Notes under the pieces: model-generated | Told to the model about the DNA's origin: nothing | Databases searched by the model: none | The model's input: the letters and a program-made list of their open reading frames with translations, nothing else | Shown here: one piece after another, positions 44,865 to 57,235 of the stretch | Layout: every line of letters begins with the position of its first letter | How positions within the stretch are numbered: position 1 is the stretch's first letter | Source of the DNA: an uncultured virus (IMG/VR IMGVR_UViG_3300034200_002321) | Lineage: Duplodnaviria > Heunggongvirae > Uroviricota > Caudoviricetes | Virus record (IMG/VR): IMGVR_UViG_3300034200_002321 | Reading direction: 5' to 3' (one strand) | Length of the DNA stretch: 64,000 nucleotides | Translations under genes and position numbers: made by a program

Positions 44865-45437
44865 CTAGGTTTGCAATCTCTCAACCGGTGTTTCGGTTGT
44901 GATGCTGAATCCGGCGCTGTCGGTTGGTAGTATTCGGGCGCTGGGTCCCGGCGTTGTCCAGTGGGCAAGTCTCGCGCGTCGGTCGTCCTCTTGTTGTTGT
45001 TGTCGTGTTAGTGGGGGAATCACTCGGAAGTTTTCAGGCGTGGTGCTGTACAGTTGCAGAACTTCAGTGACTACTGCCGCTAGTGTCTGTGCAATCATTC
45101 GCTCCGCTACGGCCCTTCCCGTTGGCGTTGCGGTTTCGTCGTGCTCCACTCCTCGCCGGAGTTGTTGCGAAGCGTGGGCGGCGACTGTCTGCAGTACGTG
45201 GCGCGCTGCGTCGGGTGCTTCTGAACAGGCTGCCTTCACAATCCAGGCCATAGGCTGCACGCGTGCGCGCGTGAAAACTCGGGCGTATAGCTCTCGGCCT
45301 ATCTCTTCCCGCTCTTCTGCGGTTGGTTCCCATTGCTGAATTTGGCGGTGTGCGATTGCGGCTAGTTGGGCGGGCGTGACGTGATGCGGTGTTGTCAGGT
45401 CGTCGATTAGGTTCGGGCTCGTGATGTGGTGCGGCAT
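44865..45437 (-). CDS. Hypothetical protein
   Basis: AAAGGA RBS; 190-aa ORF. Confidence 0.65.
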   Translation of the reverse strand: MPHHITSPNLIDDLTTPHHVTPAQLAAIAHRQIQQWEPTAEEREEIGRELYARVFTRARVQPMAWIVKAACSEAPDAARHVLQTVAAHASQQLRRGVEHDETATPTGRAVAERMIAQTLAAVVTEVLQLYSTTPENFRVIPPLTRQQQQEDDRRARLAHWTTPGPSARILPTDSAGFSITTETPVERLQT

Positions 45438-45517: not shown

Positions 45518-46324
45518 TTATGTGTTACGAGCGGCATTCAGGGCGTTTCGGAAACTGGCGTTGTGCTCCACCAGTGCTTTCCGAAACTCCTCCGGTGTTA
45601 CTCGTCGCGCTGCCTCGCCTTCCGCGTCTTGGATATGCCAGTGAACGTGTTCAGGCTTCAGAATGTCAATGAAACGCACGTTCCTGAATTTGTCGGGTTC
45701 GGGCGCTGCGGCGCTGCTGCTGCTGATGCCTCCGATGGTCACTGGCGCGGGTTCGGCGCCGGTCCGCCCTGGGCGCTGTGTCTGGTAAAGCCGTACACTC
45801 CGGGAGAATGCGGTCTTTCCCGATTGCTGCCAGGCAGCACACAGAACAACGGCAGGGGTGGGGTCGGCGTAAGCAAAACCGCTGGTCCGTCCGATTGTCA
45901 AGAGTTGCGTGGGGAGTCCGTCCGCGTTGGTCTGAGTTGCCGACATTGTCGGCGGGTGGTGTCGGTATGCGCGGGATTCGTCCGCGGTGTCTGCTGCGGC
46001 GATTTCCGCGAGTTTGGCGGCGCGGGCGGTTATCATGGTCTCCCATGTGATTGCGGGGATATGTTTTGCTGCGTCGGGTGGGATTTCCTTTTGCAATTGC
46101 TCTTTCGCCTGTTCAAGGTAGGTTGGGCGTTTTGTTGGTGGCGTTGCCGGTGGCGTTGCCGGTGGCGTTGCCGGTGTCGATGCTTTGGGTGCGCGTTTCT
46201 TTGCCGGTGGCGTTGCCGGTGGCGTTGCCGGTGGCGTTGCCGGTGGCGTGTTGGCAGCGGTTGGCAGCATTGCCTGAAGCGCGGCCAGTGTCTGAGCGAG
46301 TGCTGTGAGTGTTTGTGCGTCCAT
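45518..46324 (-). CDS. Hypothetical protein with ATPP repeats
   Basis: AAGGA RBS; 268-aa ORF. Confidence 0.7.
   Translation of the reverse strand: MDAQTLTALAQTLAALQAMLPTAANTPPATPPATPPATPPAKKRAPKASTPATPPATPPATPPTKRPTYLEQAKEQLQKEIPPDAAKHIPAITWETMITARAAKLAEIAAADTADESRAYRHHPPTMSATQTNADGLPTQLLTIGRTSGFAYADPTPAVVLCAAWQQSGKTAFSRSVRLYQTQRPGRTGAEPAPVTIGGISSSSAAAPEPDKFRNVRFIDILKPEHVHWHIQDAEGEAARRVTPEEFRKALVEHNASFRNALNAARNT
46135..46250. repeat. 12-bp coding tandem repeats (ttgccggtggcg) in two blocks
   Basis: Visible directly; encode (ATPP)n. Confidence 0.85.
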
Positions 46325-46409
46325 TGTTTGAGTCCTTAAAGCTGGTGATACCTTCCGCTCCGAAGTGGTGCGGCTAGGTTTGGCGTTGCCGTTTTCCAGT
46401 CGGCAGCAC

Positions 46410-46500
46410 CTGCTTTTAATTATATAATTTTCAGACTCTCTAGGTTAAGGCATTTTAAAAATTCTCTGAAATGATAAAATTGGGTGATATTATGGGCAGG
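46410..46500. promoter_or_regulatory. AT-rich divergent promoter region
   Basis: TATAAT/TAAAAT/TATTAT words in an AT-rich island between divergent genes. Confidence 0.55.
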
Positions 46501-46631
46501 GGATGCCGACTGTATGGTGGGCAGTCCCACCCTACGGGGGAGGACTTCTCCCACCTGACCGCGGCAGCCTATTATAGGGTGGAAAAGATTCTACCCCGGG
46601 GCCGCCTCGCCCTGCCATCGCCTAGGCAGAT

Positions 46632-46721
46632 AGGTGTCAGAAAGCGAAGCCGCGGCTTAATGCCTTGTATGAGGTGTTAGAAAGCGGAACTGCATGCCTT
46701 GTATGAGGTGTCGGAAAGCGG
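46632..46721 (+). repeat. Three direct repeats AGGTGTYRGAAAGCG
   Basis: 46632-46646, 46672-46686, 46706-46720; the last two share upstream ATGCCTTGTATG. Confidence 0.85.
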
Positions 46722-46734
46722 CATCCATATAAGA

Positions 46735-46781
46735 GCAGGTGTGGCCGACTGGTTCGGCGTGGCGTCGGCTGTCGTCGCCAC
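46735..46781 (+). promoter_or_regulatory. Dispersed intergenic element, copy 1
   Basis: GCAG-GTGTGGCC-GACTG plus hairpin, then TTGGAG RBS. Confidence 0.6.
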
Positions 46782-46810
46782 CCTCACGTCCTTCGACTTG
46801 GAGTCTCATT

Positions 46811-47023
46811 ATGACGCATTATTGTTTCTGCGGGGCCGCCATCGACCCTGACCGCTTCGACGCCGGCTTTGCCACCTGCATTCAGCATGGTGACAAGCAC
46901 AGGCATGCTGGATTCATGGTCTTCGACCACAAGACCGCACCACGTCTGGCCATTGTCCCTGTACGACCGGGGACTGAAGAGCCGCTGCGTCTCGCCCACC
47001 GCGCCAACCGACGATCACGGTAG
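46811..47023 (+). CDS. Small zinc-finger-like protein
   Basis: CFCG...TCIQH; GGAG RBS. Confidence 0.7.
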   Translation: MTHYCFCGAAIDPDRFDAGFATCIQHGDKHRHAGFMVFDHKTAPRLAIVPVRPGTEEPLRLAHRANRRSR

Positions 47024-47032
47024 GAGACGCTC

Positions 47033-47446
47033 ATGATCCGATGGTTTGATTGTGAAGCTGACGACGCAGGCCGCATCTGCGACAAGGCCTATCACATCGC
47101 TGAAATATGTGACATCTACATTCGCAGGAACAAAGAGCTGACCATACTGGCCTGTGACGACAGCGGCGACGTCGTCGGGGCTGTCTGGGTGTCGATTGAA
47201 GGAGACGAGTATGACTTTGATGTCTGTGTACACCCAGAGCACCGCAACCGTCGCCACGGTCTTGATTTGATTGAAGCAGCAATCAGGCATTTCGGCGACG
47301 TTCGGAGTGCATATATCGACCTCGACATGCACATCAAAGTCTGTGTGGTCAATCCGAAACTGGTTCGAGTGCTGGCCGCAAAATACGGTTTTGACATTGA
47401 GGCTGAGAAGCCATTAGTCACCATTATGACACTTCACTTGGAGTAG
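47033..47446 (+). CDS. GNAT-family acetyltransferase
   Basis: FDVCVHPEHRNRRHGLDLI acetyl-CoA motif A; VVNP..L..KYGF. Confidence 0.75.
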   Translation: MIRWFDCEADDAGRICDKAYHIAEICDIYIRRNKELTILACDDSGDVVGAVWVSIEGDEYDFDVCVHPEHRNRRHGLDLIEAAIRHFGDVRSAYIDLDMHIKVCVVNPKLVRVLAAKYGFDIEAEKPLVTIMTLHLE

Positions 47447-47449
47447 AAA

Positions 47450-47605
47450 ATGCTTTGGTACTACGCCGCACACAGTAGCGGATCAGACCCAAATGAACGC
47501 CATCTTACATTCGCAAGCTATGGTCACCGCGACGAGACCAAAGCGTCTGCTGAACAAACAAAGGCGCACAAAGCGACTACGAGGTACAACAAGAAGCGCA
47601 AGTAA
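47450..47605 (+). CDS. Small 51-aa basic protein
   Basis: GGAG RBS; stop immediately precedes element copy 2; not in the ORF track. Confidence 0.5.
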   Translation: MLWYYAAHSSGSDPNERHLTFASYGHRDETKASAEQTKAHKATTRYNKKRK

Positions 47606-47609
47606 CACT

Positions 47610-47661
47610 GCAGGTGTTGCCGACTGTGTGGTGCTGGCTGCTGTGGTCAGCACCGTCTTTT
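47610..47661 (+). promoter_or_regulatory. Dispersed intergenic element, copy 2
   Basis: GCAGGTGTTGCCGACTGTGTGGTGCTGGCTGCTGTGGTCAGCACCGTCTTTT. Confidence 0.8.
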
Positions 47662-47681
47662 ACTTTCAAAGGACCATTGAT

Positions 47682-48209
47682 ATGAACGAGAAGACAGAAG
47701 AATTCATTGCCGAGCTTGACGCGAGGCCGTTTTGCTGCAGCCCGGAAGTGGCTCGCAAGCTCCTGACCATGCTGTTGGCTCACGAGGCTGATCCAGACAA
47801 TCCAGCTAAAGTGCCACTGCGGTGGCATGATGCCGAGATCACAGCCTACCCCCACCCCGACACGGTGTGTTGTGGTAAGAGTGGTATGTACCGAATGGTT
47901 CTCGGCGGTCGCCCACTTCGGTGGGACGTCGTGGTGGTTGAGGAGCTGCAGCCTCTGACAGTGCTCAAAAACATCCGAGTTCGCCGGAAAAGCAGCGTGA
48001 CCAAATTCGGCGTCAGTGACTGCAGCGAACAGGCGGTCAAGACTGCAATCAAGATCGCTGCTGAGAAGCACAACGTCAACCCGAACGACATTCAGTGGAC
48101 GATCGATAACATCGACGAGGGAGTTGGCGACGTGCACCTTATGCACGTCAAACAGACACCTTGGAGCGAGTGGCGACAGCAGCAGGAATCCCCCGTTGCT
48201 GTCTCATAG
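47682..48209 (+). CDS. Hypothetical protein
   Basis: AAGGA RBS before ATG 47682. Confidence 0.7.
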   Translation: MNEKTEEFIAELDARPFCCSPEVARKLLTMLLAHEADPDNPAKVPLRWHDAEITAYPHPDTVCCGKSGMYRMVLGGRPLRWDVVVVEELQPLTVLKNIRVRRKSSVTKFGVSDCSEQAVKTAIKIAAEKHNVNPNDIQWTIDNIDEGVGDVHLMHVKQTPWSEWRQQQESPVAVS

Positions 48210-48259
48210 GCAGGTGCTGCCGACTGTGTGGTGCTGGCTGCTGTGGCCAGCACCGTTTT
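48210..48259 (+). promoter_or_regulatory. Dispersed intergenic element, copy 3
   Basis: Near-identical to copy 2; starts right after TAG. Confidence 0.8.
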
Positions 48260-48283
48260 GTGTTTTTCTTGGAGACAATCACA

Positions 48284-49240
48284 ATGGCGTCAATTGGTAA
48301 AATCATCTGGGCTCATTTCGACGAGCAGAATGCTAAGGCAAAAGCTGCTGATGCACGGCAGCAGGGAGATGAAGCGGCAGCAGCTGCCGCTGATGCTGAA
48401 GCGGATGAGGCCGCGAAGGCCAAGGCTCTGGCTGACGCTCAGATGACCTTGAAGATGTCGGTGATGCACACAATCACCTGCACCTGCGGTGACATCCTGG
48501 ACCAGAGGACAGCCCGAGTGTTTCAGATTCACGGTCACGTTCGCCGTGTCCTCTGCCCTCGGTGTGCAGAGCAAGTTGTGACAAGGCTGCGGGAGAAGGA
48601 TGCCTCTCGGTTGTCACAAGAGGATCAGGATACTATTGCAAACATGCAGGTGCTTTGGTGGAAACGTGGTGCCCAGCCCCTGAGGGAGGCTGAATTTGAC
48701 AAACCCAAAAAACCCAAGGCACCGCGTGGCACTGGTAAGAAGGCGTTCGCCAGTGTTCTCCGAGTGCTGGAGACACATAGCAAAAAGGGCCAGTCAGGGG
48801 CTGCTCAGGCTCATCTGGATCATGGCTTGGTGATTTCATACGCGTTTTGGATTCAGTTGCCACCAGAAAGCCCGCTGCGAGCTCCTACTGCGATTGCCGG
48901 CGAACGGAACCGCGATTACGAGTGTATGGTACGCAGCGTACAGGAATGGAAACGATCACCCCAAGTGGCACCCCTGACTATCGATGTCAACCCACAGAAG
49001 ATGGACGGTTGCTGGGGTCACGTGGTGAGACACGAAGGCAAGCCGGTGACTCGCACATTTGTCGATGCGAAATATCTTGAAACCATTTGCGAGTTCACCG
49101 ATCTCGGTGGTCTGATCAGCTGCTGGGCGACGGAAGAGATCAAAGCAGATCAGCCGTTGCGGTGCCAGATTCTTATCCTCGATCCCGGCAACAACGTGGT
49201 CGCTGGGGTCATGCCATTCTACGAACGGGAGGTGGTTTGA
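48284..49240 (+). CDS. Hypothetical protein with zinc ribbon
   Basis: CTCG...CPRC; GGAG RBS. Confidence 0.7.
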   Translation: MASIGKIIWAHFDEQNAKAKAADARQQGDEAAAAAADAEADEAAKAKALADAQMTLKMSVMHTITCTCGDILDQRTARVFQIHGHVRRVLCPRCAEQVVTRLREKDASRLSQEDQDTIANMQVLWWKRGAQPLREAEFDKPKKPKAPRGTGKKAFASVLRVLETHSKKGQSGAAQAHLDHGLVISYAFWIQLPPESPLRAPTAIAGERNRDYECMVRSVQEWKRSPQVAPLTIDVNPQKMDGCWGHVVRHEGKPVTRTFVDAKYLETICEFTDLGGLISCWATEEIKADQPLRCQILILDPGNNVVAGVMPFYEREVV

Positions 49241-49384
49241 GTGCGATTCTTCAATGAGGCACAGGCGTGGCGGTATCTGAAACACAAATACCCAGCAGCC
49301 GTGCAGCGGCAGTATCGAGTTGTCCCCTGCAATCAGCCAGCTGATTGCGGGGGGCTTTCTTTTCACATTGTCCAAAGGAAATAG
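49241..49384 (+). CDS. Small 47-aa hypothetical protein
   Basis: GGAGG RBS; fills the gap. Confidence 0.4.
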   Translation: MRFFNEAQAWRYLKHKYPAAVQRQYRVVPCNQPADCGGLSFHIVQRK

Positions 49385-49388
49385 AGTT

Positions 49389-49829
49389 GTGAAGTACAAA
49401 GAAGTTGTGGAGACCTTGTTCAAACTGTTGGCTGTGGCAAACGCAGCAGATGCAGACGATGCCGCCGATTGGCAGGCACCGAAAGATGCGAATCAGAGAG
49501 ACGGGCTGTTTGGTGACATACATAAAGCCATCCTCCGAATTGCCGGGAACGACGTGCTCGATCACTGGGCCGCAAGCGGCGAGGTAGAGATGCGACTTTG
49601 CCGCCGGACGCTCCAGCAGCACGACGATCGGTATGCGAAGGCGTGGTATGTTCGCATGCCGAGAGAGTTCCATGCACTCGGACCATACAGGTTCAAGAGC
49701 CATGTCACGGCAGAACACGCAGTCGAACTGGTCATTGCCCAGTTCGGACTCCCGCCCGCTGAGGTCTGGCCGGATGGTGAGACGACGGAGGGAAACATGT
49801 ACGAGTACGACTACACGTATACGGAGTAG
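49389..49829 (+). CDS. Hypothetical protein
   Basis: AAGGA RBS; its 3' end is duplicated at 50621-50734. Confidence 0.65.
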   Translation: MKYKEVVETLFKLLAVANAADADDAADWQAPKDANQRDGLFGDIHKAILRIAGNDVLDHWAASGEVEMRLCRRTLQQHDDRYAKAWYVRMPREFHALGPYRFKSHVTAEHAVELVIAQFGLPPAEVWPDGETTEGNMYEYDYTYTE

Positions 49830-50188
49830 CAGAGGTCGCCGACTGGTACACTGTCGACCGGTGTGGTCGGCAGCTAACTTTTTTCTTGGAGAAAAACATG
49901 TTGCATGAACAGGCTGAACAGATCCTCGCAGAGGTGACCACACTCCCCCTGCGGAACCCAGATGATTTCATCGATGCAGTTCTCAATCGCATCCCTCTCG
50001 ACGATGATCCTGATGGCTGGTGTATTGAAGACCTAAGCTTGGACGAGTGGAGTGGCGAACATGACGGGGTCCGGTACTTGTACCGGAACAACGGGGATTA
50101 CAATCGCGATACATCTCCTGTGTTCTGGGTACACCAGCCACTTACGCATGACGAGCCCATCAAGTTCGGCTACAGCCCGTGGCCGCCG
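49716..50188 (+). repeat. ~470-bp segmental duplication, copy A
   Basis: Highly similar to 50621..51078. Confidence 0.9.
49829..49884 (+). promoter_or_regulatory. Dispersed intergenic element, copy 4
   Basis: GCAG-AGGTCGCC-GACTG plus hairpin and T6. Confidence 0.65.
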
Positions 50189-50239
50189 GGATTGCAGAAC
50201 ACATTTTTGGACGCTGAACGAAAGGGACAACGACCATGA
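49898..50239 (+). CDS. Acidic hypothetical protein (short paralog)
   Basis: First ~97 aa nearly identical to the N-terminus of 50789..51913. Confidence 0.7.
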   Translation: MLHEQAEQILAEVTTLPLRNPDDFIDAVLNRIPLDDDPDGWCIEDLSLDEWSGEHDGVRYLYRNNGDYNRDTSPVFWVHQPLTHDEPIKFGYSPWPPGLQNTFLDAERKGQRP

Positions 50240-50508
50240 TGATTCAAGAACTGATCGAACGCCTGGAAAAACTCCGCGAGCTCCACGGACCGGACTGCGA
50301 AGTCCGCTTGATGACTCAACCGACGTGGCCGTTCCAGACGACCATTGGCGGGATTGTGAGCTCGGAAGAGATTCACCGGGCGGATGCGGAACGTTGTAGA
50401 CCATTCTATGCGATAGACGACGATGGCGACGCTCCGCCGGAGGTGGTCTTCCTCCTCGAAGGCACCCAACTCAGGTACGGATCCAAGTCCGCCTGGAATC
50501 TGGTCTGA
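50236..50508 (+). CDS. Hypothetical phage protein
   Basis: ATGA overlap; ELIERL...EVRLMTQPTWPF...YGSKSAW. Confidence 0.7.
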   Translation: MMIQELIERLEKLRELHGPDCEVRLMTQPTWPFQTTIGGIVSSEEIHRADAERCRPFYAIDDDGDAPPEVVFLLEGTQLRYGSKSAWNLV

Positions 50509-50523
50509 ACCGGGAGCCACGAC

Positions 50524-50734
50524 ATGCCACGCCTGAGTTGCCTGAAACCCGGCACTCGATTCCGGGTGCCCGAACTGGACCTGACAGCGACGCTGCTGAT
50601 GGTGAACGAATGCCGGGCAGCACGCAGTCGAACAGGCCATTGCCCAGTTCGGAGTGGCACCCTCTGAAGTCTGGCCGGATGGTGAGACGACGGAGGGAAA
50701 CGAGTATGAGTACGACTACACATACACTGAGTAG
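50524..50734 (+). pseudogene. Truncated ORF (MPRLSCLKPGTRFRV...VNECRA) joined out of frame to a start-less 3' remnant of the 49389..49829 gene
   Basis: GGGAG RBS and ATG 50524; the remnant frame (HAVEQ...YTYTE*) has an in-frame TGA at 50603 and no start before the homology begins. Confidence 0.6.
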
Positions 50735-51078
50735 CAGAGGTCGCCGACCGGTGTGGTCGGCAGCTAACTTTTTTGTGGAGAAAAAAAGATGTTGAATGAA
50801 CAGGCTGAACAGATCCTCGCAGAGGTGGCCACACTCCCCCTGCGGAACCCAGATGACTTCATCGATAGGGTGCTCGATCGCATTCCTCTCGACGACGATC
50901 CCGATGGCTGGAGTATTGAAGAGCTGGACTTGGACGAGTGGGCTGGCGAACGAGACGGGGTCCGGTACTTGTACCGGAACAACGGGGACTACGATCGCGA
51001 CACATCACCTGTGTTCTGGGTACACGAGCCGCTCACGCATGACGAGCCCATCAAGTTCGGCTACAGCCCGTGGCCGCC
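50621..51078 (+). repeat. ~460-bp segmental duplication, copy B
   Basis: Highly similar to 49716..50188. Confidence 0.9.
50734..50774 (+). promoter_or_regulatory. Dispersed intergenic element, copy 5 (15 nt shorter than copy 4)
   Basis: GCAGAGGTCGCCGACCGGTGTGGTCGGCAGCTAACTTTTTT. Confidence 0.65.
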
Positions 51079-51913
51079 AGCACAAGCCGCTCTCCGGGCG
51101 GCGTACTGTGAGAAACACAAACGAAAGGAATGCCCGCACTGCCAGGCTCTCATCCACCAAGACTGCGTCAGCTGTCCAAGCTGTGATCGGTACCTCGACA
51201 CTGGCGGCCCTGTGGTTCCGGTTGAAAACGTGCTGCCGGAGGAGAGTTGGTACTGTCTGGAGGACGGCGGCAGCGATCGGTATCGCTGGGTGTACGGTCA
51301 GCTCCTTCCAACAGACGACCCCGGGGTGCTGGTAATCGAGTTGGATGTACTGCCGTCTGACGGCCGGCGAGACCACGATGCACCGGAACAGTGGTGTGTT
51401 ACAATTCGGTTTGCCATGCCCGACGGGGTGCGCAAGCAGGACCGGCAAGCCATGTTTGCGTCTCTGGGCATTGAGTCGTGGACGCCAACAAGCAATCGAT
51501 TTGCAGTTGAAGAGGTCTGGGAGGGTGCTGTTGACATACCGAAAAAGCACCAGCGTCGGCTGGGCTGGAAGGGAGTGCAACTTGTCCCTGGCGGGAGCGT
51601 TGACCTCTGTATGTTCAGCGAGTATGCAGATGCACGTCGTTGGTGCAACGAGCGTAACAAGTGGTTTGCTCAGGCTGTCAAAGCCATGGCTTGCTTGGAC
51701 TACGGACTGTCGGCTGCGTTTTGGCAGTCCACTGGGTACTGCCCGTCGAGGCTCGTGGCCGCCGCCCGTGAAGAGGCTGCTGGCATCCACATAATCATGA
51801 CAGGGTGCAGCCTTGACAAACCACAGAATGGGGTTGGTGCAACCGGCTGGGAGACTTGCCGCGGCTACGATGTCACCAAGGCGGTAAAGAGGGCCTTGAA
51901 AGAACAGAAGTAG
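50789..51913 (+). CDS. Multidomain hypothetical protein (long paralog) with double zinc ribbon
   Basis: CPHC...CPSC after the shared N-terminal domain. Confidence 0.75.
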   Translation: MLNEQAEQILAEVATLPLRNPDDFIDRVLDRIPLDDDPDGWSIEELDLDEWAGERDGVRYLYRNNGDYDRDTSPVFWVHEPLTHDEPIKFGYSPWPPAQAALRAAYCEKHKRKECPHCQALIHQDCVSCPSCDRYLDTGGPVVPVENVLPEESWYCLEDGGSDRYRWVYGQLLPTDDPGVLVIELDVLPSDGRRDHDAPEQWCVTIRFAMPDGVRKQDRQAMFASLGIESWTPTSNRFAVEEVWEGAVDIPKKHQRRLGWKGVQLVPGGSVDLCMFSEYADARRWCNERNKWFAQAVKAMACLDYGLSAAFWQSTGYCPSRLVAAAREEAAGIHIIMTGCSLDKPQNGVGATGWETCRGYDVTKAVKRALKEQK

Positions 51914-51932
51914 ACTGGCTCTTGCCTGACCA

Positions 51933-51982
51933 GCAGGGGCGGCTGACTGTGTGGTGCTGGCTGTCGTGGCCAGCACCTTTTT
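51933..51982 (+). promoter_or_regulatory. Dispersed intergenic element, copy 6
   Basis: GCAG-GGGCGGCT-GACTGTGTGGTGCTGGC...GCCAGCACCTTTTT. Confidence 0.8.
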
Positions 51983-52001
51983 CCTTCTTGGAGGAGTGAA
52001 T

Positions 52002-52184
52002 ATGACATACTATTACGGTAGCGAATACCCACGAGAGCCGCTCATCATCCGATTCTGGAGCACGCAAGGACATTTTGCGGCATGGGACATCGTCGCCAGC
52101 GCCTGCGTCGGCATTTGTACTCCTCGGCTGTTGGTGATGACAAGCCCCGCGTTTGTGGTTCCCGCCGTGGAGGTGCAGCAGTGA
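52002..52184 (+). CDS. Small hypothetical protein
   Basis: GGAGG RBS. Confidence 0.5.
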   Translation: MTYYYGSEYPREPLIIRFWSTQGHFAAWDIVASACVGICTPRLLVMTSPAFVVPAVEVQQ

Positions 52185-52549
52185 GTATCCACGGGTGTAT
52201 GGTGGGCGTGACTGTGATTCATTCCCACAGCAAATGCGAGGCGTGTTCAGATACTGGGCTCGACCCAGAAACCAATTGGGACGCCTGCCCGCGGTGTCAT
52301 GGCGCAGTAAATGGCACGCCGGTAGTCTACTTGGTTCTCGGCGGACAGGAAATTACCGGCCAAAAAAGGCTGCGGCTACTTAACCCGCCATCGTTTGACA
52401 GCAACTACTATTCAGGCCTGTTCGGCGTGACTATCTGGAGCACAGGCGACCGCGTGATGATCGGTGAAAAACACTGGGCTAATCGCGTCGGCTATACGGC
52501 AATTCAGTTGGCTCAACAACCAGTTCCGCCTGTGGAGGTGCAGCAGTGA
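52181..52549 (+). CDS. Hypothetical protein with DnaJ-like Zn motif
   Basis: CEACSDTG...CPRCHG; GTGA overlap. Confidence 0.6.
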   Translation: MSIHGCMVGVTVIHSHSKCEACSDTGLDPETNWDACPRCHGAVNGTPVVYLVLGGQEITGQKRLRLLNPPSFDSNYYSGLFGVTIWSTGDRVMIGEKHWANRVGYTAIQLAQQPVPPVEVQQ

Positions 52550-52686
52550 CAAAACCATACACCGCCAAATTCCTCGCAGCCGAAAAGCGCCGGACCACGA
52601 TCCACGACCACCAGCGCCGTATCTGCGTGCTGAAAGAAGCAGCCCGTCAGATCAAAGAAAGGGAGACACGTCGTGAAAAAAGTTAA
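52546..52686 (+). CDS. Small 46-aa basic protein
   Basis: GGAGG RBS and GTGA overlap; not in the ORF track. Confidence 0.5.
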   Translation: MTKPYTAKFLAAEKRRTTIHDHQRRICVLKEAARQIKERETRREKS

Positions 52687-52861
52687 ACTCAAGTACCCCA
52701 TATTCCTCAAAGGAAAAGGCCTGCCAAAAGATGGGGTGTGTGTGCTCAACGAAGGGCAGGAAGTCGAAGTCCAACAGCTGGGCAACAACCTTGTCGAGAT
52801 GACAGCCACGTATCGCGGCAAACAGATCACGTGGCGCACACTTGACAGTGTGTATTGGTAG
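52673..52861 (+). CDS. Small SH3-like hypothetical protein
   Basis: GGGAG RBS. Confidence 0.6.
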   Translation: MKKVKLKYPIFLKGKGLPKDGVCVLNEGQEVEVQQLGNNLVEMTATYRGKQITWRTLDSVYW

Positions 52862-52927
52862 CAGGTGCTGGCGACTGTGAGTGTGACCGCTGGCCAGCTG
52901 CGGCTGGTCAGTGTCGTGTTCACTTTT
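52861..52927 (+). promoter_or_regulatory. Dispersed intergenic element, copy 7
   Basis: GCAG-GTGCTGGC-GACTGTG plus a different hairpin and T-tract. Confidence 0.7.
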
Positions 52928-52949
52928 GTTTTCTCTTGGAGAGACTCTT

Positions 52950-53462
52950 ATGAGATGGAATACAGATTACCAACGAGTGCTTCCGCGGGACCTGTTCAAC
53001 GAGGCTGCCCTGCTCAAGTGCTTGGGCAAGGTGGCCTTGTGGATCCACGAGGGGATGCTGCCCCTGCTTACGGTTGAACACACCCCAGTGGGTGTCGGCG
53101 ACCAGCACACACAGGGCTTTGATGTTCGGCTGACTGAGTGTGGCTACCTGTTCGCTGGTAGTCTCAGGTTCTACCTGTGCGGCCGTCTGGCGGATTCTCT
53201 TGGGCTGTCAGTGTCGCACCTGTCACAGCTTAGGAGTGGGATACATCCGTGGACGAAAGAAGTCCTGTTTGTCAGCCCATACAACAGTCGTGAGCCGTGG
53301 CCGCTGCTCTGGTGCTGGAGCTATGATGGAGACATGCTGCCAGTGTTCGCATATGACGGCGAGCCAGACCCGGATTTTCTGGCGGCGATGAGGACGCCGC
53401 CGGCCACAACAGAAGTCAATGACGCTTTGCTGACGTTCTTGGAGGGCGATAGTGATGGTTGA
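52950..53462 (+). CDS. Hypothetical protein with an internal HTH-like segment
   Basis: YQRVLPRDLFNEAALLKCLG; LADSLGLSVSHLSQLRSG. Confidence 0.7.
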   Translation: MRWNTDYQRVLPRDLFNEAALLKCLGKVALWIHEGMLPLLTVEHTPVGVGDQHTQGFDVRLTECGYLFAGSLRFYLCGRLADSLGLSVSHLSQLRSGIHPWTKEVLFVSPYNSREPWPLLWCWSYDGDMLPVFAYDGEPDPDFLAAMRTPPATTEVNDALLTFLEGDSDG

Positions 53463-53781
53463 GATTATGATTAACACTGACATCGACGCACCAGGCTGCC
53501 CGTGTGAGATCCTCGGAATCTGCGATGGTGAGGAGATCGGATCTATTCTGGTACAGACTGACTGGGACTATCCGGGATTCGCTCAGTCGTTTGGCTGGAC
53601 GCTGCAGAAGGTGCAAAAGTCCCGCCGTCGTAAGTGCAGTCACGACGGGACTGATGGGACGGTTCGCTGCCCTTCGTGTGGCGTAGAGCCGGGGCAGTTC
53701 ATTGCAGCTGCCTACGAATTCTTGGTCAGCAACGACGGGTTGCGGGCCGTTGACCCAGGATATTTTGATAGTGGAGGATGA
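53455..53781 (+). CDS. Hypothetical zinc-ribbon protein
   Basis: CSH...CPSCG; GGAGG RBS. Confidence 0.65.
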   Translation: MVEIMINTDIDAPGCPCEILGICDGEEIGSILVQTDWDYPGFAQSFGWTLQKVQKSRRRKCSHDGTDGTVRCPSCGVEPGQFIAAAYEFLVSNDGLRAVDPGYFDSGG

Positions 53782-53782
53782 C

Positions 53783-54328
53783 GTGGATTTAGACACACCA
53801 AACGACGTCAAAGCGTTGGCGTTGTCGGCTGATCGTGCTTGGCTTCTTGCCAGACTGCGAGACAGCCAAAGGATGACTGACACGCCATACAACGAGCTCC
53901 TGCGGGGTAGTTCGTTCGACTTTCAAAGCAAACGACTTTGCGGGCGGCATGGTTTCACCTTGCAATGGAAGCTGAGGAGGCGACCTGACCAGCCAATCGA
54001 GTATGACAACCAACAGGCCTCTGTTGGCATTGTTACGCTGGATAAGAAGGAAGGCTACTCTTCAGTTTATCGAAGGATTTGGGGGTCGCTGCTTCCCGAC
54101 GGTTGCTTAGGGCCTGTGGTGGTCCACCCGGTCCGTTTTATCGGTCGATCGCGGGGTGCATGCGGTCTTTGCTTGATCAGAACACACACAGTGCATGATC
54201 CTTTGGGGGAGCCGGATGCCGCTCGGCAAGAGCTGGCTGGCCTGTGGGAAATACACCAAGACTTTGGTGTCGATGTAGACACACAACTCAGACATGTGCA
54301 TGGCCCGTTTATCCGCCGTTCTTATTAA
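53783..54328 (+). CDS. Hypothetical protein
   Basis: GGAGG RBS. Confidence 0.6.
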   Translation: MDLDTPNDVKALALSADRAWLLARLRDSQRMTDTPYNELLRGSSFDFQSKRLCGRHGFTLQWKLRRRPDQPIEYDNQQASVGIVTLDKKEGYSSVYRRIWGSLLPDGCLGPVVVHPVRFIGRSRGACGLCLIRTHTVHDPLGEPDAARQELAGLWEIHQDFGVDVDTQLRHVHGPFIRRSY

Positions 54329-54339
54329 AGGAAATTCTT

Positions 54340-54660
54340 GTGCGCAAAACAACACCACCCCCTGAGGTAGTAGACAGCAAGCTACGAGAGAGGCTTGAGC
54401 AGTATGTGCTGGATCACCACGCGATCCATATCATTCCAGAAAACACGCTGGAGCATTTTCTTCTGGTCGCAACGCCGCCAGTGAGAGACCAGCTGTGGAC
54501 TGTCGTGTTTGCCCTTCCGTGGGAACAGTTGAGAGCTCTTTACTCTCCGTCGAGCAACTGTGAGCCTTTTGAAGAATCTGTGAACAAGTACGCGGTCGAG
54601 ATCGCCACCTGTGTGTGGTCTCGTGAGTTTTCAAAACGGTATCCAACAGGAGAACGCTGA
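54340..54660 (+). CDS. Hypothetical protein
   Basis: AAGGA RBS. Confidence 0.55.
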   Translation: MRKTTPPPEVVDSKLRERLEQYVLDHHAIHIIPENTLEHFLLVATPPVRDQLWTVVFALPWEQLRALYSPSSNCEPFEESVNKYAVEIATCVWSREFSKRYPTGER

Positions 54661-54677
54661 CTTTTTGGAGGGACCAC

Positions 54678-54881
54678 GTGCCTGCTGTCGTTAGTACTGG
54701 TGCTGCTATTGAGAGTTTTTGTTACTTGACACTCAGAGAAGCGGTCGAAGTTGTTGCGTTTTTTCGCTCACTCGGCTGGGTTGTGTCCGAACCCATCCAA
54801 ACTTCAAGCCGCGAGCTGGGTTGGCAGCCGGATTGTTACGTTTACGTGCTTCACGCTGTTCACCACTCCCGTATTGATTAG
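54678..54881 (+). CDS. Hypothetical protein
   Basis: GGAGG RBS. Confidence 0.55.
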   Translation: MPAVVSTGAAIESFCYLTLREAVEVVAFFRSLGWVVSEPIQTSSRELGWQPDCYVYVLHAVHHSRID

Positions 54882-54900
54882 TTTTTCTTGGAGAAAAAAT

Positions 54901-55740
54901 ATGTCTGTTCAGCAGCTCACACCCGCGACAATTGACATGACACTGTGGGTTTCAACATACGCAAGTCAGTACCACCCCGCTCCGTGGGAGGCCGATGTCT
55001 GGCACTACGGACCTATTACGTCAGAGAATGGCCCTCTGCGAGTGGGACTTGATGTCTGGTCTGCGGTCTCCATGCTGCGGGCAGCGGACCTGAGGTATGC
55101 GGTGGAGTACCTCAATGATCTGGCCTACTGGGAGAGGTATAAGGACGATCGCAGACCTGCCTGGCTGCCACCCAGCCTGCTGATCTGGAGCGAACCCCCA
55201 GAGACAATCCAGTATCTGAATACTTGGTGGCATCGAAATTTTTCGTGGCGGTGCAGCAAGCACCAGTCACCGGAGCACGCCGGTGACGGGTCTCTCATCT
55301 ATCTGATGCTGGGGTGTGCAGACGCAACCCGTATGCAAGCTGCAACTGGCACCTTGCGGCCAGAGCACTACGACCGGGTGCTCATGTACTGTAAAGCCGC
55401 TGAGTGTTGGCGGTACAACACCATTGAAGGTGTTGATTTGTTGCGAGCCGAGCTGAACCTTGCGACAGCGGCAGGTCGCACGCCTGAACAAGCTGTTTTT
55501 GACATGCGGCAGGCAGACCTGGAGGCCTTTGAGCTCTGTGTGCACAGTAAGCACAAAGACGCATACGTTCGCTGGCTCAGAGGGTTGCAGGATGACGACT
55601 TGCGCAACATGTACTACACGCCGATGACGCACAACCCCCTGTGTGTTGCAGATCGAATTGAAAAGCAGCTTGGCATCATCTACCGAACGCTGTGTCATCA
55701 GATGCCGGGGTATGCTAATGCACCTTGGAATAGCCGTTAG
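54901..55740 (+). CDS. Hypothetical protein
   Basis: TTGGAG RBS before ATG 54901. Confidence 0.7.
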   Translation: MSVQQLTPATIDMTLWVSTYASQYHPAPWEADVWHYGPITSENGPLRVGLDVWSAVSMLRAADLRYAVEYLNDLAYWERYKDDRRPAWLPPSLLIWSEPPETIQYLNTWWHRNFSWRCSKHQSPEHAGDGSLIYLMLGCADATRMQAATGTLRPEHYDRVLMYCKAAECWRYNTIEGVDLLRAELNLATAAGRTPEQAVFDMRQADLEAFELCVHSKHKDAYVRWLRGLQDDDLRNMYYTPMTHNPLCVADRIEKQLGIIYRTLCHQMPGYANAPWNSR

Positions 55741-55742
55741 AA

Positions 55743-55801
55743 GCAGGTGACGGCGACTGTGTGGTGGGTCGGTGATGGTCACCGACCCACGTTTCTTTTT
55801 T
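55743..55801 (+). promoter_or_regulatory. Dispersed intergenic element, copy 8
   Basis: GCAG-GTGACGGC-GACTGTGTG plus perfect hairpin GTGGGTCGGTGA/TCACCGACCCAC and T-tract. Confidence 0.75.
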
Positions 55802-55816
55802 CGATTGGAGCTTTGT

Positions 55817-56587
55817 ATGGACTTGTGCAAGAAAACAAAAGAACACCCGGACTGGGTCAATACTGCAACAGGAGCGCACGTGCTCTTCGTCGACAGCATC
55901 TATCGCCTGGCGTACAGGAAGCTCGACGAAGGCGGGTCGTACTTGTTGGAGACGCCGCCGAAAAGGCTTCTGAGGTGGTTCTATACCGACGCCACTGAAG
56001 ACGAAAAGCAAACGCTGTCCGAGGTTCACGCGTGTATCGAACAGTTTGGGCAGGGTCTCCACATCAACAACAGCCCACTCGGTGTGTTTGTTTTGATGTA
56101 CAACGTCATGAACGGCAGGGCAGATCGGCTGCACACGGTGCTGGACCAAGGCATGCTGTCTCGTTTTGAAAAACGAATCCTCAAGAAAGACGGCACTCTG
56201 ACTAAAGAAGCACGTGCGGTCTTGGAGAGGACTGTGACTCCCGAGGTGCGGTATTGCCGGCCGTTCTACACCATCGACGGAGTGCTTCCCGAGCCACCGT
56301 ACTACCGGTGTGGTTTTTACGCATCACCACGCTACAACAAGCTGTATTTGCGTCTTGATACCAATTTTGCTGTGACACGAACAGACACATACAACGGAAA
56401 TCAAACACGAGAGATACTTTTGGCAGACACTGACAATGGGGTTGTGTCAAACATCCACCTGTGGTTCACCCCTCGGCGTACTGACTGGACTGAAATCGAA
56501 GTACTTGCGCTCAAGGCACGAACAAAAGAGCTGCGAGCCGCGTATGAGCGAAGCCGCAGTCTGGCCGACGAATTTCCTGACTACTGA
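55817..56587 (+). CDS. Hypothetical protein
   Basis: TTGGAG RBS before ATG 55817. Confidence 0.7.
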   Translation: MDLCKKTKEHPDWVNTATGAHVLFVDSIYRLAYRKLDEGGSYLLETPPKRLLRWFYTDATEDEKQTLSEVHACIEQFGQGLHINNSPLGVFVLMYNVMNGRADRLHTVLDQGMLSRFEKRILKKDGTLTKEARAVLERTVTPEVRYCRPFYTIDGVLPEPPYYRCGFYASPRYNKLYLRLDTNFAVTRTDTYNGNQTREILLADTDNGVVSNIHLWFTPRRTDWTEIEVLALKARTKELRAAYERSRSLADEFPDY

Positions 56588-56612
56588 CCAATCACAAACG
56601 AGGAGTGTTGTT

Positions 56613-56900
56613 GTGCGAGTCACCATGGTGATGTCATCTAAACCAAACTCAAACGAGCTACACCTGAACTGGTCCGCCGATGAGTACAACAAGGACGCAA
56701 GTCTGCAGAGCACATATGCTGTTGGACAGAAGTTCCAACGGATCACACAAGCCAGCGCGAAACTTTGCATCGGCTTTCCGGGGCCTTGGCGGGTCCAATC
56801 GCACAGTGCCAACGAAGATTCCAGCGTGACTGTAGTCCTCGTAAAACACAAGCGGGTCCGAAAGCCAAGCAGTGCAGGGTCTGGCTTTTTCTGCCGGTAA
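56613..56900 (+). CDS. Hypothetical protein
   Basis: GAGGAG RBS; start uncertain. Confidence 0.5.
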   Translation: MRVTMVMSSKPNSNELHLNWSADEYNKDASLQSTYAVGQKFQRITQASAKLCIGFPGPWRVQSHSANEDSSVTVVLVKHKRVRKPSSAGSGFFCR

Positions 56901-57004
56901 ACACGAAGACATACCAATGCTCTTTTTGTAGAGCATCGGTACTGGTTCAAATATCAACTCTCGTAATAAGGACACACTGATGCCAAACAAAAAACCAAGA
57001 CAGA

Positions 57005-57235
57005 GTGTACGAGCTGTACGATAAGTTTGAGGCTGCTGTGGAAGAGACGCAGGGCTGGGGTTCGGAGATCGAATCAGAGCTGACTACTCTGTTGGACCCT
57101 GAATGCTACGCCGTTGAAGAATCCCGTCTCAGCACTATCGAGTCAATAGAGACGAGTGTGAAGGCGCTGCGGACGTACCTCCGCACTCTCAAACGTGTGT
57201 CTGCAAAAATCGTGGATCTCAAAAAAGCCAAGTAG
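57005..57235 (+). CDS. Small coiled-coil protein
   Basis: Helical ORF followed by a T-tract. Confidence 0.55.
   Translation: MYELYDKFEAAVEETQGWGSEIESELTTLLDPECYAVEESRLSTIESIETSVKALRTYLRTLKRVSAKIVDLKKAK

What the first reader, a model, noticed from the sequence alone, without database searches (positions are those of the whole stretch)
46735..55801. Eight-copy fixed-spacing intergenic element dividing the early region into cassette-like gene units
Seen: at 46735, 47610, 48210, 49829, 50734, 51933, 52861 and 55743 the motif GCAG-N8-GACTG recurs with invariant spacing (a CAG-N10-CTG dyad; GACCG in copy 5). Six copies start within ~5 nt of an upstream stop codon. Each is followed by a GC-rich hairpin, a pyrimidine/T tract, an RBS (mostly TGGAG) and a start codon. 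The hairpin sequence differs completely between some copies (2/3/6 vs 7 vs 8) while the structure is kept. Known parallels: promoter-stem-loop cassettes in T4-like hyperplastic regions, integron attC sites, T7 RNase III sites, and nut/put antitermination sites. Inference: either a phage-wide regulatory unit (protein site plus attenuator or processing site) or a recombination module that shuffles accessory genes. The duplication spanning copies 4 and 5 shows this region does rearrange.
Basis: partly seen in the sequence, partly recalled or inferred. Interest (0 to 1): 0.85.

Follow-up and report, generated by a model that had tools for sequence, protein, structure and literature searches.

The report
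Repeated box-plus-hairpin linker between phage genes
An uncultured freshwater phage separates groups of its small early genes with ten copies of one signal, a fixed 17-letter box followed by a stable RNA hairpin, and distant relatives keep the signal while all the genes between copies differ; it is a new form of a familiar kind of phage gene punctuation.

Summary
GCAG-N8-GACYG occurs 11 times against 2.05 expected. Those two sit directly after the -10 elements of two divergent sigma70-like promoters.

All ten copies are intergenic and point the way of transcription. Internal copies run from a stop codon (usually their own TAG) through the box, a GC hairpin and a T-rich tract to the TTGGAG ribosome site. 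The scanner calls six of the eight internal copies terminator-like.

Two 65-kb relatives (portal 54% identical) share no accessory gene with the window. They still carry a homologous element (AGCAGGTCYGGCCCG plus a three-tier hairpin with a UGCG loop). Its stem covaries (11 of 19 pairs compensatory). The sense RNA folds at least as well as the antisense in 17 of 17 copies.

Between those two relatives the elements are 97-99% identical but in a different order, and the genes between them are unrelated. They are therefore mosaic junctions.

The element lacks an internal sigma70 promoter (unlike PeSLs), attC cores, boxA and any Rfam match. Most likely it is RNA-level elongation punctuation read by an unknown factor, with cassette exchange as a by-product. 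The mechanism is unproven.

The parts
46397..46413 (-). Leader copy of the box (GCAGGTGCTGCCGACTG, identical to the 48210 copy) at the start of the leftward early transcript. The 89-nt leader runs down to the ATG at 46324.
   Evidence: The -10 TATAAT of the leftward promoter ends at 46419, 5 nt before the box.
46419..46448 (-). Leftward sigma70-like promoter (TTAACC-18-TATAAT, 10 of 12 matches).
   Evidence: It drives genes 45518-46324 and 44865-45437, which codon usage favours on the minus strand.
46466..46493 (+). Rightward sigma70-like promoter (CTGAAA-16-TATTAT with an extended -10 TG).
   Evidence: It lies in the most AT-rich 40-mer of the window.
46496..46734 (+). Leader copy of the box (46496-46512) and a roughly 220-nt structured, apparently non-coding leader with three AGGTGTnnGAAAGCG repeats.
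   Evidence: No convincing ORF. No Rfam match.
46735..46810 (+). Element copy: box, two small hairpins, TTGGAG, then ATG at 46811. No T tract.
47610..47681 (+). Element copy: box, GGTGCTGGC hairpin, T tract, ribosome site, then ATG at 47682.
   Evidence: (terminator-like at 47628-47656).
48210..48283 (+). Element copy: box, hairpin, T tract, TTGGAG, then ATG at 48284.
   Evidence: (terminator-like at 48228-48256).
49829..49897 (+). Element copy. The 3' half of the box is the 5' arm of the hairpin.
   Evidence: (49851-49873). It lies inside the duplicated block.
50734..50788 (+). Element copy (GACCG variant, shortened hairpin). It is preceded by a 42-codon remnant paralogous to the end of gene 49320-49829.
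51933..52001 (+). Element copy: box, hairpin, T tract, TTGGAGG, then ATG at 52002.
   Evidence: (51953-51977).
52861..52949 (+). Element copy with the long three-tier hairpin and C(UGCG)G loop. It is the copy most like those of relatives G002 and G003.
   Evidence: It is the only window hit of covariance model R1 (54.5 bits).
55743..55816 (+). Last element copy: box, 12-bp hairpin, T tract, TTGGAG, then ATG at 55817.
   Evidence: (55764-55790).

Best explanation
What it is. The element is a family-conserved intercistronic linker of the early operons. It reads: (T)AG stop, a 17-nt box (AGCAGGT..GSC..), an extra-stable RNA hairpin, 8-15 nt that are often U-rich, a ribosome site and a start codon.

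Proposed mechanism. Host RNA polymerase starts at two divergent sigma70-like promoters at 46.4 kb, so each early transcript begins at or within a few bases of a box copy. Along the roughly 10-kb rightward operon every gene group (1-6 genes) ends in another box and hairpin.
- The hairpin folds in the sense transcript.
- In this phage 5-6 of the 8 internal copies are also intrinsic terminators or attenuators.
- The box is the sequence-specific site where an unknown factor acts on the elongating polymerase or its nascent RNA. The factor is encoded by the host or by the conserved phage core. The logic resembles nut, put or ops sites, and it would decide how far transcription runs and how each gene group is expressed.
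- Because the same roughly 20-nt box and the ribosome-site end recur at every junction, the elements also serve as short homologies at which gene groups are exchanged.

Shown: repetition, intergenic position, co-orientation, hairpin covariation and strand bias, terminator-like anatomy, promoter-adjacent leader copies, and mosaic junctions in relatives.

Inferred: that the box binds a factor, that the factor acts on elongation, and whether the box works as RNA or as DNA.
For: Real and non-random. 11 hits against 2.05 expected. 10 of 10 true copies are intergenic. 10 of 10 are co-oriented with the genes downstream.

Leader copies. They stand 2-5 nt after the -10 hexamers of both divergent promoters. 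By eye the same layout holds in G003, as nutL/nutR and putL/putR stand in both early operons of lambdoid phages (recalled).

Need for read-through. No sigma70-like promoter was found on the + strand between 46.5 and 58.1 kb, yet 6 of 8 internal copies are called terminator-like. Expression of about 9 kb therefore needs read-through.

Hairpin works as sense RNA.
- The sense fold is at least as stable as the antisense fold in 17 of 17 copies (sum -423 against -360 kcal/mol; 48 against 16 G.U pairs).
- In 9 sequences from three genomes 90.6% of cells pair, against 36-47% when the partner is slid.
- 11 of 19 pairs show compensatory change, and 0 of 500 shuffles reach the observed score.

Box under selection. 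The core AGCAGGT..GSC is kept between clades that share no accessory ORF.

Hairpin apex. It carries YUGY, complementary to the invariant GCAG, in 11 of 13 distinct hairpin types against 2.6 expected. The only variants are C/U. The types are not independent.

Cassette side. Element-only islands are 97-99% identical and reordered between G002 and G003.
Against: - No trans-acting factor was identified. No N-like, Q-like, NusG-like or sigma protein appeared in Pfam, PHROGs or NCBIfam.
- With the -10 hexamers that the scanner picks, the predicted starts at the two promoters fall inside GCAGG, so leader RNAs may lack the first bases of the box. This fits a DNA site better.
- In 4 of 10 window copies the 3' half of the box is itself paired in the first hairpin (46413-, 46735, 49829, 50734). 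That is awkward for a single-stranded RNA site.
- In G003 the scanner of 4 internal copies terminator-like. By eye only about 2 have T-rich tails. Termination is therefore not the conserved property, and antitermination cannot be the whole story.
- A processive factor loaded once at the leader would not need a site before each hairpin.
- There are no RNA data.
Confidence: 0.35

Rival explanations
1. DNA-level operator in the manner of mycobacteriophage stoperators. A phage DNA-binding protein binds the asymmetric box, shuts the two early promoters where the box overlaps the start site, and blocks elongating polymerase at each intergenic copy. The hairpins would be a separate RNA feature sharing the same gaps.
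For: - The box is asymmetric. Two copies overlap the predicted start sites of divergent promoters, and 8 lie in short intergenic gaps. All 10 are oriented with transcription. These are the defining traits given for L5-type operators and stoperators (PMC9283540, passages read).
- The 3' half of the box differs between clades while the 5' half is kept, as expected for diverging specificities.
- Box conservation does not depend on whether the RNA is paired there.
- The phage has a serine recombinase and an excisionase-like HTH, so it may be temperate.
Against: - No repressor candidate was found. The leftward-operon proteins have no HTH hit and no PDB relative.
- No accessory protein is shared between clades that share the box core.
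- Copies are confined to 9.4 kb instead of spread over the genome.
- The tight link to a covarying RNA hairpin, and the apex complementary to GCAG, would be left unexplained.
- A separate palindromic operator-like set exists at 40480-40530.
Confidence: 0.2
2. Plain RNA punctuation with no dedicated factor. The hairpins stabilise the upstream message against 3' exonucleases, or insulate the next ribosome site, as REP elements, T4 CUUCGG hairpins and T7 RNase III sites do. The box is kept mainly by copying and recombination among elements.
For: - The hairpin is sense-strand specific and covaries.
- C(UGCG)G is a UNCG-type stable loop (recalled).
- The hairpin ends a constant 8-15 nt before the ribosome site.
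- The G003-type stems are about 19-21 bp with internal loops, like RNase III substrates (the comparison is recalled).
- T-rich plus TTGGAG is the general start region in this phage, also without the element (family D9).
Against: - The box core is kept across clades in which every flanking gene and most hairpin sequences have been replaced. This argues for selection on the sequence itself.
- Leader copies at the very 5' end of primary transcripts have nothing to process.
- The window hairpins of 10-12 bp are short for RNase III.
- The strict YUGY apex suggests specific recognition.
Confidence: 0.15
3. Each copy is an internal promoter of an unrecognised type (host polymerase with a phage factor). 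Every gene group would then have its own start, as in PeSLs or the phiC31 early promoters.
For: - Cassette modularity would be best served by a portable promoter.
- The leader copies coincide with start sites.
- Copy 46735 has TATAAG 1 nt upstream.
Against: - None of the 7 copies from 47610 to 55743 has a sigma70-like promoter, and their upstream sequences share nothing.
- The box precedes the hairpin and T tract, so transcripts would meet a terminator within about 50 nt.
- The distance from box to T tract varies (24-47 nt), which excludes a two-block promoter.
- No phage RNA polymerase or sigma was found, and the giant proteins are not conserved in relatives.
Confidence: 0.08
4. Dedicated site-specific recombination site. 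The box and hairpin would be an attachment site for cassette capture and excision, like an integron, with the promoter-adjacent copies acting like attI. It would be run by the conserved tandem-domain serine recombinase.
For: - It is a co-oriented array behind a promoter, with a conserved core plus a hairpin of variable sequence and conserved structure.
- Promoter-adjacent copies exist.
- Elements are the junctions of reordered, unrelated gene sets in G002 and G003, and one crossover maps to an 8-nt window at the box-hairpin border.
- The recombinase is conserved between clades (39% identity) and has two catalytic domains.
Against: - attC cores are absent in 8 of 8 copies, and there is no tyrosine integrase.
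- Serine recombinases use double-stranded sites (recalled).
- None of the 15 joints listed from contigs of 4 metagenome runs links one element to another (5 more joints were not shown). Their breakpoints lie in genes.
- The G.U bias of the hairpin points to RNA.
- Short-homology recombination explains the junctions equally well, as shown for PeSLs (PMC2839356, passages read).
Confidence: 0.07

Closest known systems
PeSL (promoter-early stem-loop) cassettes of T4-type phages (PMC2839356, passages read; PMC4122927, abstract and outline read)
   Same: [quoted passage not shown] Both contain a terminator-type stem-loop and a ribosome site, flank ORFan genes in a plastic region, and serve as junctions of insertions, deletions and replacements between related phages.
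   Different: [quoted passage not shown] Here only 8-15 nt separate the hairpin from the ribosome site, and none of the 7 copies from 47610 to 55743 has a sigma70-like promoter. Instead a 17-nt GC-rich box lies upstream of the hairpin, and the same box stands at the two true promoters. Mini-circles were not tested.
Operators and stoperators of cluster A mycobacteriophages (L5, TipsytheTRex; PMC9283540, passages read)
   Same: Both are asymmetric short sites found at early promoters and in short intergenic gaps, with an orientation that follows the direction of transcription. Both vary between related phages.
   Different: No cognate repressor was found. Copies number 10, not 20-30, and are confined to one operon region. 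They are coupled to an RNA hairpin. The site is 17 nt long, not 13.
nut (lambda) and put (HK022) antitermination sites
   Same: Both are cis elements placed just downstream of both divergent early promoters in operons that contain terminators. Both have a single-stranded box followed by a hairpin.
   Different: No boxA sequence is present and the loop is not of the boxB type. No N-like protein was found. Here copies precede every internal hairpin, which is not known for nut or put.
T7 early-region RNase III sites, REP elements and T4 CUUCGG hairpins (recalled)
   Same: All are intercistronic stable hairpins in a long early transcript made by host polymerase. The G003-type stems are about 20 bp with internal loops.
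   Different: A conserved sequence box lies upstream, and copies stand at the transcript 5' ends. Most window hairpins are only 10-12 bp.
SAS/ESAS repeats of cluster K mycobacteriophages (PMC3203893, passages read)
   Same: Both are oriented repeats tied to the start regions of a subset of genes, partly with an upstream inverted repeat, and in both the function is unknown.
   Different: The SAS is a 13-bp motif that includes the ribosome site. Here the conserved box is 50-70 nt upstream, at the preceding stop codon.
Integron attC sites (recalled)
   Same: Both form a co-oriented cassette array behind one promoter, with hairpins conserved in structure and variable in sequence.
   Different: The RYYYAAC and GTTRRRY cores are absent in 8 of 8 copies. 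There is no IntI. The strand bias of G.U pairs points to RNA.

Membership tests
PeSL regulatory cassette | Intergenic module from the upstream stop to the downstream ATG, with a stem-loop that terminates transcription | tested here: met
   Modules are 55-89 nt. 6 of 8 internal window copies are called terminator-like. Only the anatomy was tested, not the activity.
PeSL regulatory cassette | Strong sigma70-like early promoter with an AT-rich upstream region inside each module | tested here: not met
   None of the 7 copies from 47610 to 55743 has a promoter-like site. Only 8-15 nt lie between hairpin and ribosome site.
PeSL regulatory cassette | Copies are junctions of gene gain, loss or replacement between related phages | tested here: met
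   G003 against G002: element-only matches of 76-88 bp at 97-99% identity, reordered, with unrelated genes between them. The same was not seen in the window's own population variants.
PeSL regulatory cassette | Excised mini-circles formed by recombination between copies | tested here: inconclusive
   No listed joint in contigs of 4 runs links two elements. Contigs drop rare forms, and 5 joints were not shown.
Stoperator system (cluster A mycobacteriophages) | Asymmetric site at promoters and in short intergenic gaps, oriented with transcription | tested here: met
   2 copies at promoters and 8 in gaps; 10 of 10 co-oriented.
Stoperator system (cluster A mycobacteriophages) | Cognate monomeric repressor (HTH plus a second DNA-binding domain) | tested here: not met
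   No such protein appeared in Pfam, PHROGs or NCBIfam, nor among PDB relatives of the promoter-adjacent genes. A very divergent protein could have been missed.
Stoperator system (cluster A mycobacteriophages) | Binding blocks initiation and elongation | not testable with these tools
   Needs binding and reporter assays.
Lambda-type nut site | boxA consensus (CGCTCTTA-like) upstream of a boxB hairpin | tested here: not met
   The full rrn-type boxA is absent. GCTCTT occurs 3 times in 46.3-56 kb, one of them 11 nt before the 51933 box and none inside a box.
Lambda-type nut site | A copy just downstream of each divergent early promoter | tested here: met
   46397-46413(-) and 46496-46512(+), 5 and 2 nt after the -10 hexamers.
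Lambda-type nut site | N-type arginine-rich antiterminator encoded early | tested here: inconclusive
   No family hit. Such proteins are short and poorly conserved.
Integron attC | R''/R' core sites (RYYYAAC ... GTTRRRY) | tested here: not met
   0 of 8 internal copies hold either core.
Integron attC | Adjacent IntI tyrosine integrase | tested here: not met
   No tyrosine recombinase appeared in the Pfam scans. The only recombinase is of the serine type, 8 kb away.
Intrinsic (Rho-independent) terminator | GC-rich hairpin directly followed by a T tract | tested here: met
   Window: 47610, 48210, 49829, 51933, 52861 (partial stem) and 55743 are called; 46735 and 50734 are not. G003: 0 of 4 are called.
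Any Rfam family | Covariance-model match | tested here: not met
   Window 40000-62000 at E up to 1 gave only a tRNA and a weak overlapping hit. Nothing matched at the elements.

The most novel reading that the evidence does not exclude
The box and hairpin form the attachment site of a phage-borne, integron-like cassette system. The promoter-adjacent copies act as primary insertion sites next to the two early promoters. Internal copies delimit captured ORFan cassettes. The conserved serine recombinase with two tandem catalytic domains, a single-chain pseudo-dimer suited to an asymmetric site, moves the cassettes. The same RNA then punctuates expression.
Probability: 0.07. Interest if true: 0.9.

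Novelty: new variant of a known kind. Interest (0 to 1): 0.5.

Why it matters
- Early regions of uncultured phages are full of ORFan genes whose expression logic is unknown.
- This signal outlives every gene around it. Two clades with 54% identical portals share no accessory gene, yet they keep the box, the hairpin architecture and the promoter-adjacent copies.
- That makes the element a handle for finding early operons and cassette borders in metagenomic phages.
- It is also a compact test case for how phages keep newly acquired genes expressible.
- If the box proves to be a distributed loading site for an elongation factor, or a recombination site, it would add a new mechanism. If it is only a stabiliser and attenuator, it is one more family of phage gene punctuation.
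- Notes from this scan list several similar hairpin cassettes in other uncultured phages (unchecked), so the general kind is common.

Tried and rejected
Searches that found nothing:
- Close relatives in the INPHARED phage collection: none by megablast of 46300-56300 or by tblastn of the 1839-aa protein.
- The exact 24-nt pattern in metagenome and genome collections: 0 hits.
- A 19-nt pattern in viral contigs: 5 single hits, not examined further.
- The G003-type 16-mer in viral contigs: 13 loci. The 8 outside G002 and G003 lack the hairpin and are chance hits.
- Ten partial relatives' contigs do not reach the accessory region.
- The 374-aa early protein has no relative in viral contigs.
- SNF2-anchored searches gave only short metagenome contigs, or G001, G002 and G003 again, and no bacterial genome. 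No prophage or host was found.
- No whole genome is held for the window.

RNA and read data:
- No RNA holder listed among 20 runs.
- The contigs of 4 runs show no box-to-box joint among the 15 joints listed.
- Covariance model R1 found 2 new G002 copies and one hairpin-only copy in G003. It found nothing convincing in the loci from other phage and metagenome contigs among its 38 sources; the best such hit was 17 bits, E 0.2.

Ideas rejected:
- sigma54, ECF or two-block promoter: spacing is wrong or variable (by eye).
- LexA box: the half-sites are in the inverse order.
- Small ORF through the box: the G-every-third-base pattern holds only in the window type, and the frames are inconsistent.
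- Suppressor tRNA reading the TAG: the only tRNA is Tyr-GTA.
- Antisense or seed target inside the phage: only chance 9-10-mers.
- A virion RNA polymerase among the giant proteins: they are not conserved in relatives.

Protein searches:
- The CsrA-like protein was not found.
- Phmmer of the two leftward-operon proteins against the PDB gave nothing.

Full report
**Context.** The window is almost a whole phage genome of about 66 kb.
- Pfam finds a P22-like portal, a weak large-terminase hit, a primase-polymerase with DUF3987, a family A DNA polymerase, an SNF2 helicase, a DUF2800 nuclease, a serine recombinase and a small HTH.
- A 24.7-kb IMG/VR record (G001, 98-99% identical) joins the window's right end to its left end through about 2 kb. 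It does not cover the element region.
- The phage collection holds nothing similar.
- Runs that hold the stretch are freshwater and lake metagenomes. No RNA holder is listed.

**The observation.**
- GCAG-N8-GACYG occurs 11 times against 2.05 expected, and 0 of 100 shuffles reach 11.
- All eight reported places are confirmed.
- The hit at 62050(-) lies inside the SNF2 gene and shows no wider similarity. I treat it as chance.
- The consensus extends to GCAGGTGnnGCCGACTGTGTGGTG. With up to 3 mismatches the 17-mer finds no further convincing copy.
- All 10 copies lie in the 7.6% of the window that I call intergenic.
- From 46325 to 59045, 8 of the 12 gaps of 39 nt or more hold at least one copy. 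There is none beyond 55.8 kb.
- My gene calls rest on ribosome sites, start codons and a codon-usage score. They are heuristic.

**Anatomy of an internal copy.**
- The order is: stop codon, box, GC hairpin, a mostly T-rich stretch, (C)TTGGAG, start codon. The whole is 55-89 nt.
- Six copies start within 5 nt of the stop. Five of the 6 genes before an element end in TAG, against 14 of 69 other genes (p=0.003). In relatives the motif reads TAGCAGG, so the stop codon belongs to the element.
- The scanner calls 47610, 48210, 49829, 51933, 52861 and 55743 terminator-like. It does not call 46735 or 50734.
- Hairpins fall into unrelated sequence types (47610/48210/51933; 49829/50734; 52861; 55743; 46735) while the fold is kept.
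- T-rich plus TTGGAG is also the start region of genes that have no element (family D9). The T tract is therefore partly a translation feature.

**The two extra copies change the picture.**
- Between them (46414-46495) lies the most AT-rich stretch of the window, with two divergent sigma70-like promoters.
  - Leftward: TTAACC-18-TATAAT, ending at 46419.
  - Rightward: CTGAAA-16-TATTAT with an extended -10 TG, ending at 46493.
- The boxes begin 5 and 2 nt after these -10 hexamers. Each early transcript therefore starts at the box or within it.
- Codon usage supports two leftward genes (45518-46324, 44865-45437). It also supports a separate rightward operon at 40565-44515 with its own promoter and palindromic operator-like repeats.
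- No sigma70-like promoter is found on the + strand between 46.5 and 58.1 kb. The rightward early genes therefore look like one long unit punctuated by the elements.
- Between the leader copy and 46735 lies a structured, apparently non-coding stretch of about 220 nt with three short repeats.

**Relatives.**
- Portal searches found two complete IMG/VR genomes, G003 (64.8 kb, terminal repeats) and G002 (66.7 kb), with a 54% identical portal.
- Structural and replication genes are shared with the window. Between primase and SNF2 (window 40.3-61.2 kb) no protein is shared, by tblastn or by all-against-all blastp of ORFs.
- The window's exact motif is absent there. Both genomes nevertheless have their own element: (T)AGCAGGTCYGGCCCG, then after 2-4 nt a three-tier hairpin of about 19-21 pairs closed by C(UGCG)G, then TTGGAGG and a start codon.
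  - G003 has four internal copies plus one hairpin-only copy.
  - G002 has seven internal copies: five seen, and two found with covariance model R1.
- By eye, both have leader variants on both strands of a divergent intergenic region, again right after TATAAG- or GATGAT-like hexamers. The scanner does not call promoters there.
- The window copy 52861 has the same three-tier hairpin, the same loop and the ..TCGTGTTCAC tail. It aligns with the G003 type as AGCAGGT(G)CTGGC and is the only window hit of R1.
- The elements of the two clades are therefore homologous, although every gene around them differs.

**RNA or DNA?**
- The hairpin behaves as sense-strand RNA.
  - The sense fold is at least as stable as the antisense fold in 17 of 17 copies (sum -423 against -360 kcal/mol), with 48 against 16 G.U pairs.
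  - On nine sequences from three genomes, 90.6% of cells pair, against 36-47% when the partner is slid. Eleven of 19 pairs show compensatory change, and 0 of 500 shuffles reach the score. The sequences are related, so the shuffle count is not a probability.
- The hairpin apex carries YUGY (CUGC, CUGU or UUGC) in 11 of 13 distinct hairpin types, against 2.6 expected. YUGY is complementary to the invariant GCAG of the box, and the only variation seen is C/U. That is what pairing with G would allow, but it could equally be a protein-recognition loop. The hairpin types are not independent.
- For the box itself the evidence is split.
  - Its link to the RNA hairpin points to RNA.
  - Its constant place 1-5 nt after -10 hexamers points to DNA.
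  - So does the fact that its 3' half is paired in 4 of 10 window copies.

**Cassette question.**
- G003 and G002 are 84-96% identical in shared genes. In the element region the only matches are the elements themselves.
  - G003 31767-31842 matches at 97.4%.
  - G003 33095-33182 matches at 97.7%.
  - G003 35347-35425 matches at 98.7%.
  - They stand in a different order, with unrelated genes between them.
- One G002 copy has the upstream gene and box of G003's fourth copy but the hairpin of its first. This places a crossover between box position 9 and the first hairpin base.
- Other borders of homology blocks fall at start codons or gene ends.
- In the window's own population the picture differs. 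Contigs of four runs show these variants:
  - a variant lacking the 49.7-50.6 kb duplication (joint 49480 to 50613, in 2 runs);
  - a 563-nt stretch replaced by 702 letters (52052 to 52616, in 2 runs);
  - several smaller deletions.
  All have breakpoints inside genes, and none joins one box to another. Only 15 joints were listed; 5 more were not shown.
- The 49829/50734 duplication spans the element, from mid-gene to mid-gene, and leaves a 42-codon gene remnant.
- The elements are thus junctions of old mosaicism, as PeSLs are. I see no sign of ongoing, site-specific excision.

**What it is not.**
- No Rfam family matches.
- No attC cores, and no boxA inside the box.
- No internal sigma70 promoter.
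- No phage RNA polymerase, sigma, N-, Q- or NusG-like protein or repressor appears in four libraries.
- The only tRNA is Tyr-GTA.
- There is no complementary target inside the phage.

**Mechanism.**
- My best reading (0.35) is an RNA-level punctuation module in which the hairpin attenuates or terminates. It also stabilises and insulates the neighbouring cistrons.
- In this reading the box is a loading or recognition site for an elongation-control factor. It is present at the start of both early transcripts and again before each hairpin.
- Among the proteins shared between the clades, the only evident DNA-binding candidates are the 66-aa excisionase-like HTH and the recombinase.
- Against this reading: G003-type copies mostly lack T tracts, and a processive factor would need only one site.
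- Rivals:
  - a stoperator-like DNA operator (0.2), which fits the promoter-overlapping copies and the orientation rule described for L5-type phages (PMC9283540) but lacks a repressor;
  - plain stabiliser or insulator hairpins, with the box kept by copying (0.15);
  - internal promoters (0.08);
  - a dedicated recombination site (0.07).

**Novelty.**
- The kind is known: conserved regulatory linkers between ORFan genes of a phage early region that double as recombination junctions (PeSLs; PMC2839356, passages read; PMC4122927, abstract read).
- Notes of this scan list similar hairpin cassettes in other uncultured phages (unchecked leads).
- New here are:
  - the GC-rich box in place of a promoter;
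  - its presence at both true promoters;
  - the built-in TAG;
  - the loop complementary to the box;
  - survival of the element across clades that share no accessory gene.
- I did not search the literature for this exact sequence. The four paper searches targeted the comparators only.

Noticed in passing
window 36524-38056 (-): The serine recombinase has two tandem catalytic domains in one 510-aa frame (YARVSTLEQ near residue 8 and YVRVSTDEQ near residue 200). An unassigned tail of about 165 aa follows. The fused form is kept in G002 and G003 (39% identity over residues 2-485).
   Followed up: partly
window 40421-40530: A strong sigma70-like promoter (TTGACT-17-TATATA) is followed by a perfect hairpin and by three operator-like half-sites (ACTGGTATTAC / GTAATACCAGT / GTAATACTGG). 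It stands ahead of the 40565-44515 operon. This is a second regulatory system, unrelated to the box.
   Followed up: no
window 46513-46734: The leader between the first two rightward box copies is structured and apparently non-coding. It holds three copies of AGGTGTnnGAAAGCG and two of ATGCCTTGTATGAGGTGT. No Rfam match.
   Followed up: partly
window 45922-46272: Tandem 12-nt repeats (GGTGGCGTTGCC on the + strand) encode TPPA repeats in the first leftward gene. Their number differs between metagenome variants (joints 45922 to 46145, 46157 and 46226).
   Followed up: no
window 53186-53256; G001 8140-8209: A 69-70-nt stretch inside gene 52950-53462 is absent in 2 of 4 runs. It has an inverted 86% copy in the roughly 2 kb of genome outside the window. 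Contigs also join 53231 to about 60488 on opposite strands. It may be a small inverted-repeat insertion.
   Followed up: no
window 1-161: Short tandem repeats at the window start match G001 9012-9302 in several registers.
   Followed up: no
window 40540-40580, 44570-44590, 33250-33275, 21765-21780: TGTCAC/GTGACA words recur in other intergenic gaps, for example GTGTCACAAAGTGTCACAAAG. They may be sites of another regulator.
   Followed up: no
window 46811-47023; G003 31114-31251; G002 (homologue of the latter): The first gene after the rightward leader is a small cysteine-rich (zinc-ribbon-like) protein in each clade, with cysteines at similar positions. No detectable sequence similarity and no family hit.
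   Followed up: partly
window 43906-43993 (+): A tRNA-Tyr (GTA) lies inside the 40.5-44.5 kb operon.
   Followed up: no
window 49322-49355, 57220-43 and 58465-58496 (+): Three strong terminator-like hairpins stand in the same rightward region without the box. The one at 57220 is a symmetric A6/T6 hairpin that could work in both directions.
   Followed up: no
L030 15826-15877 (G003 35826-35877): A hairpin-only copy of the G003-type element has the three-tier stem and the TTTCGTGT tail but no AGCAGG box. Box and hairpin are therefore separable modules.
   Followed up: partly
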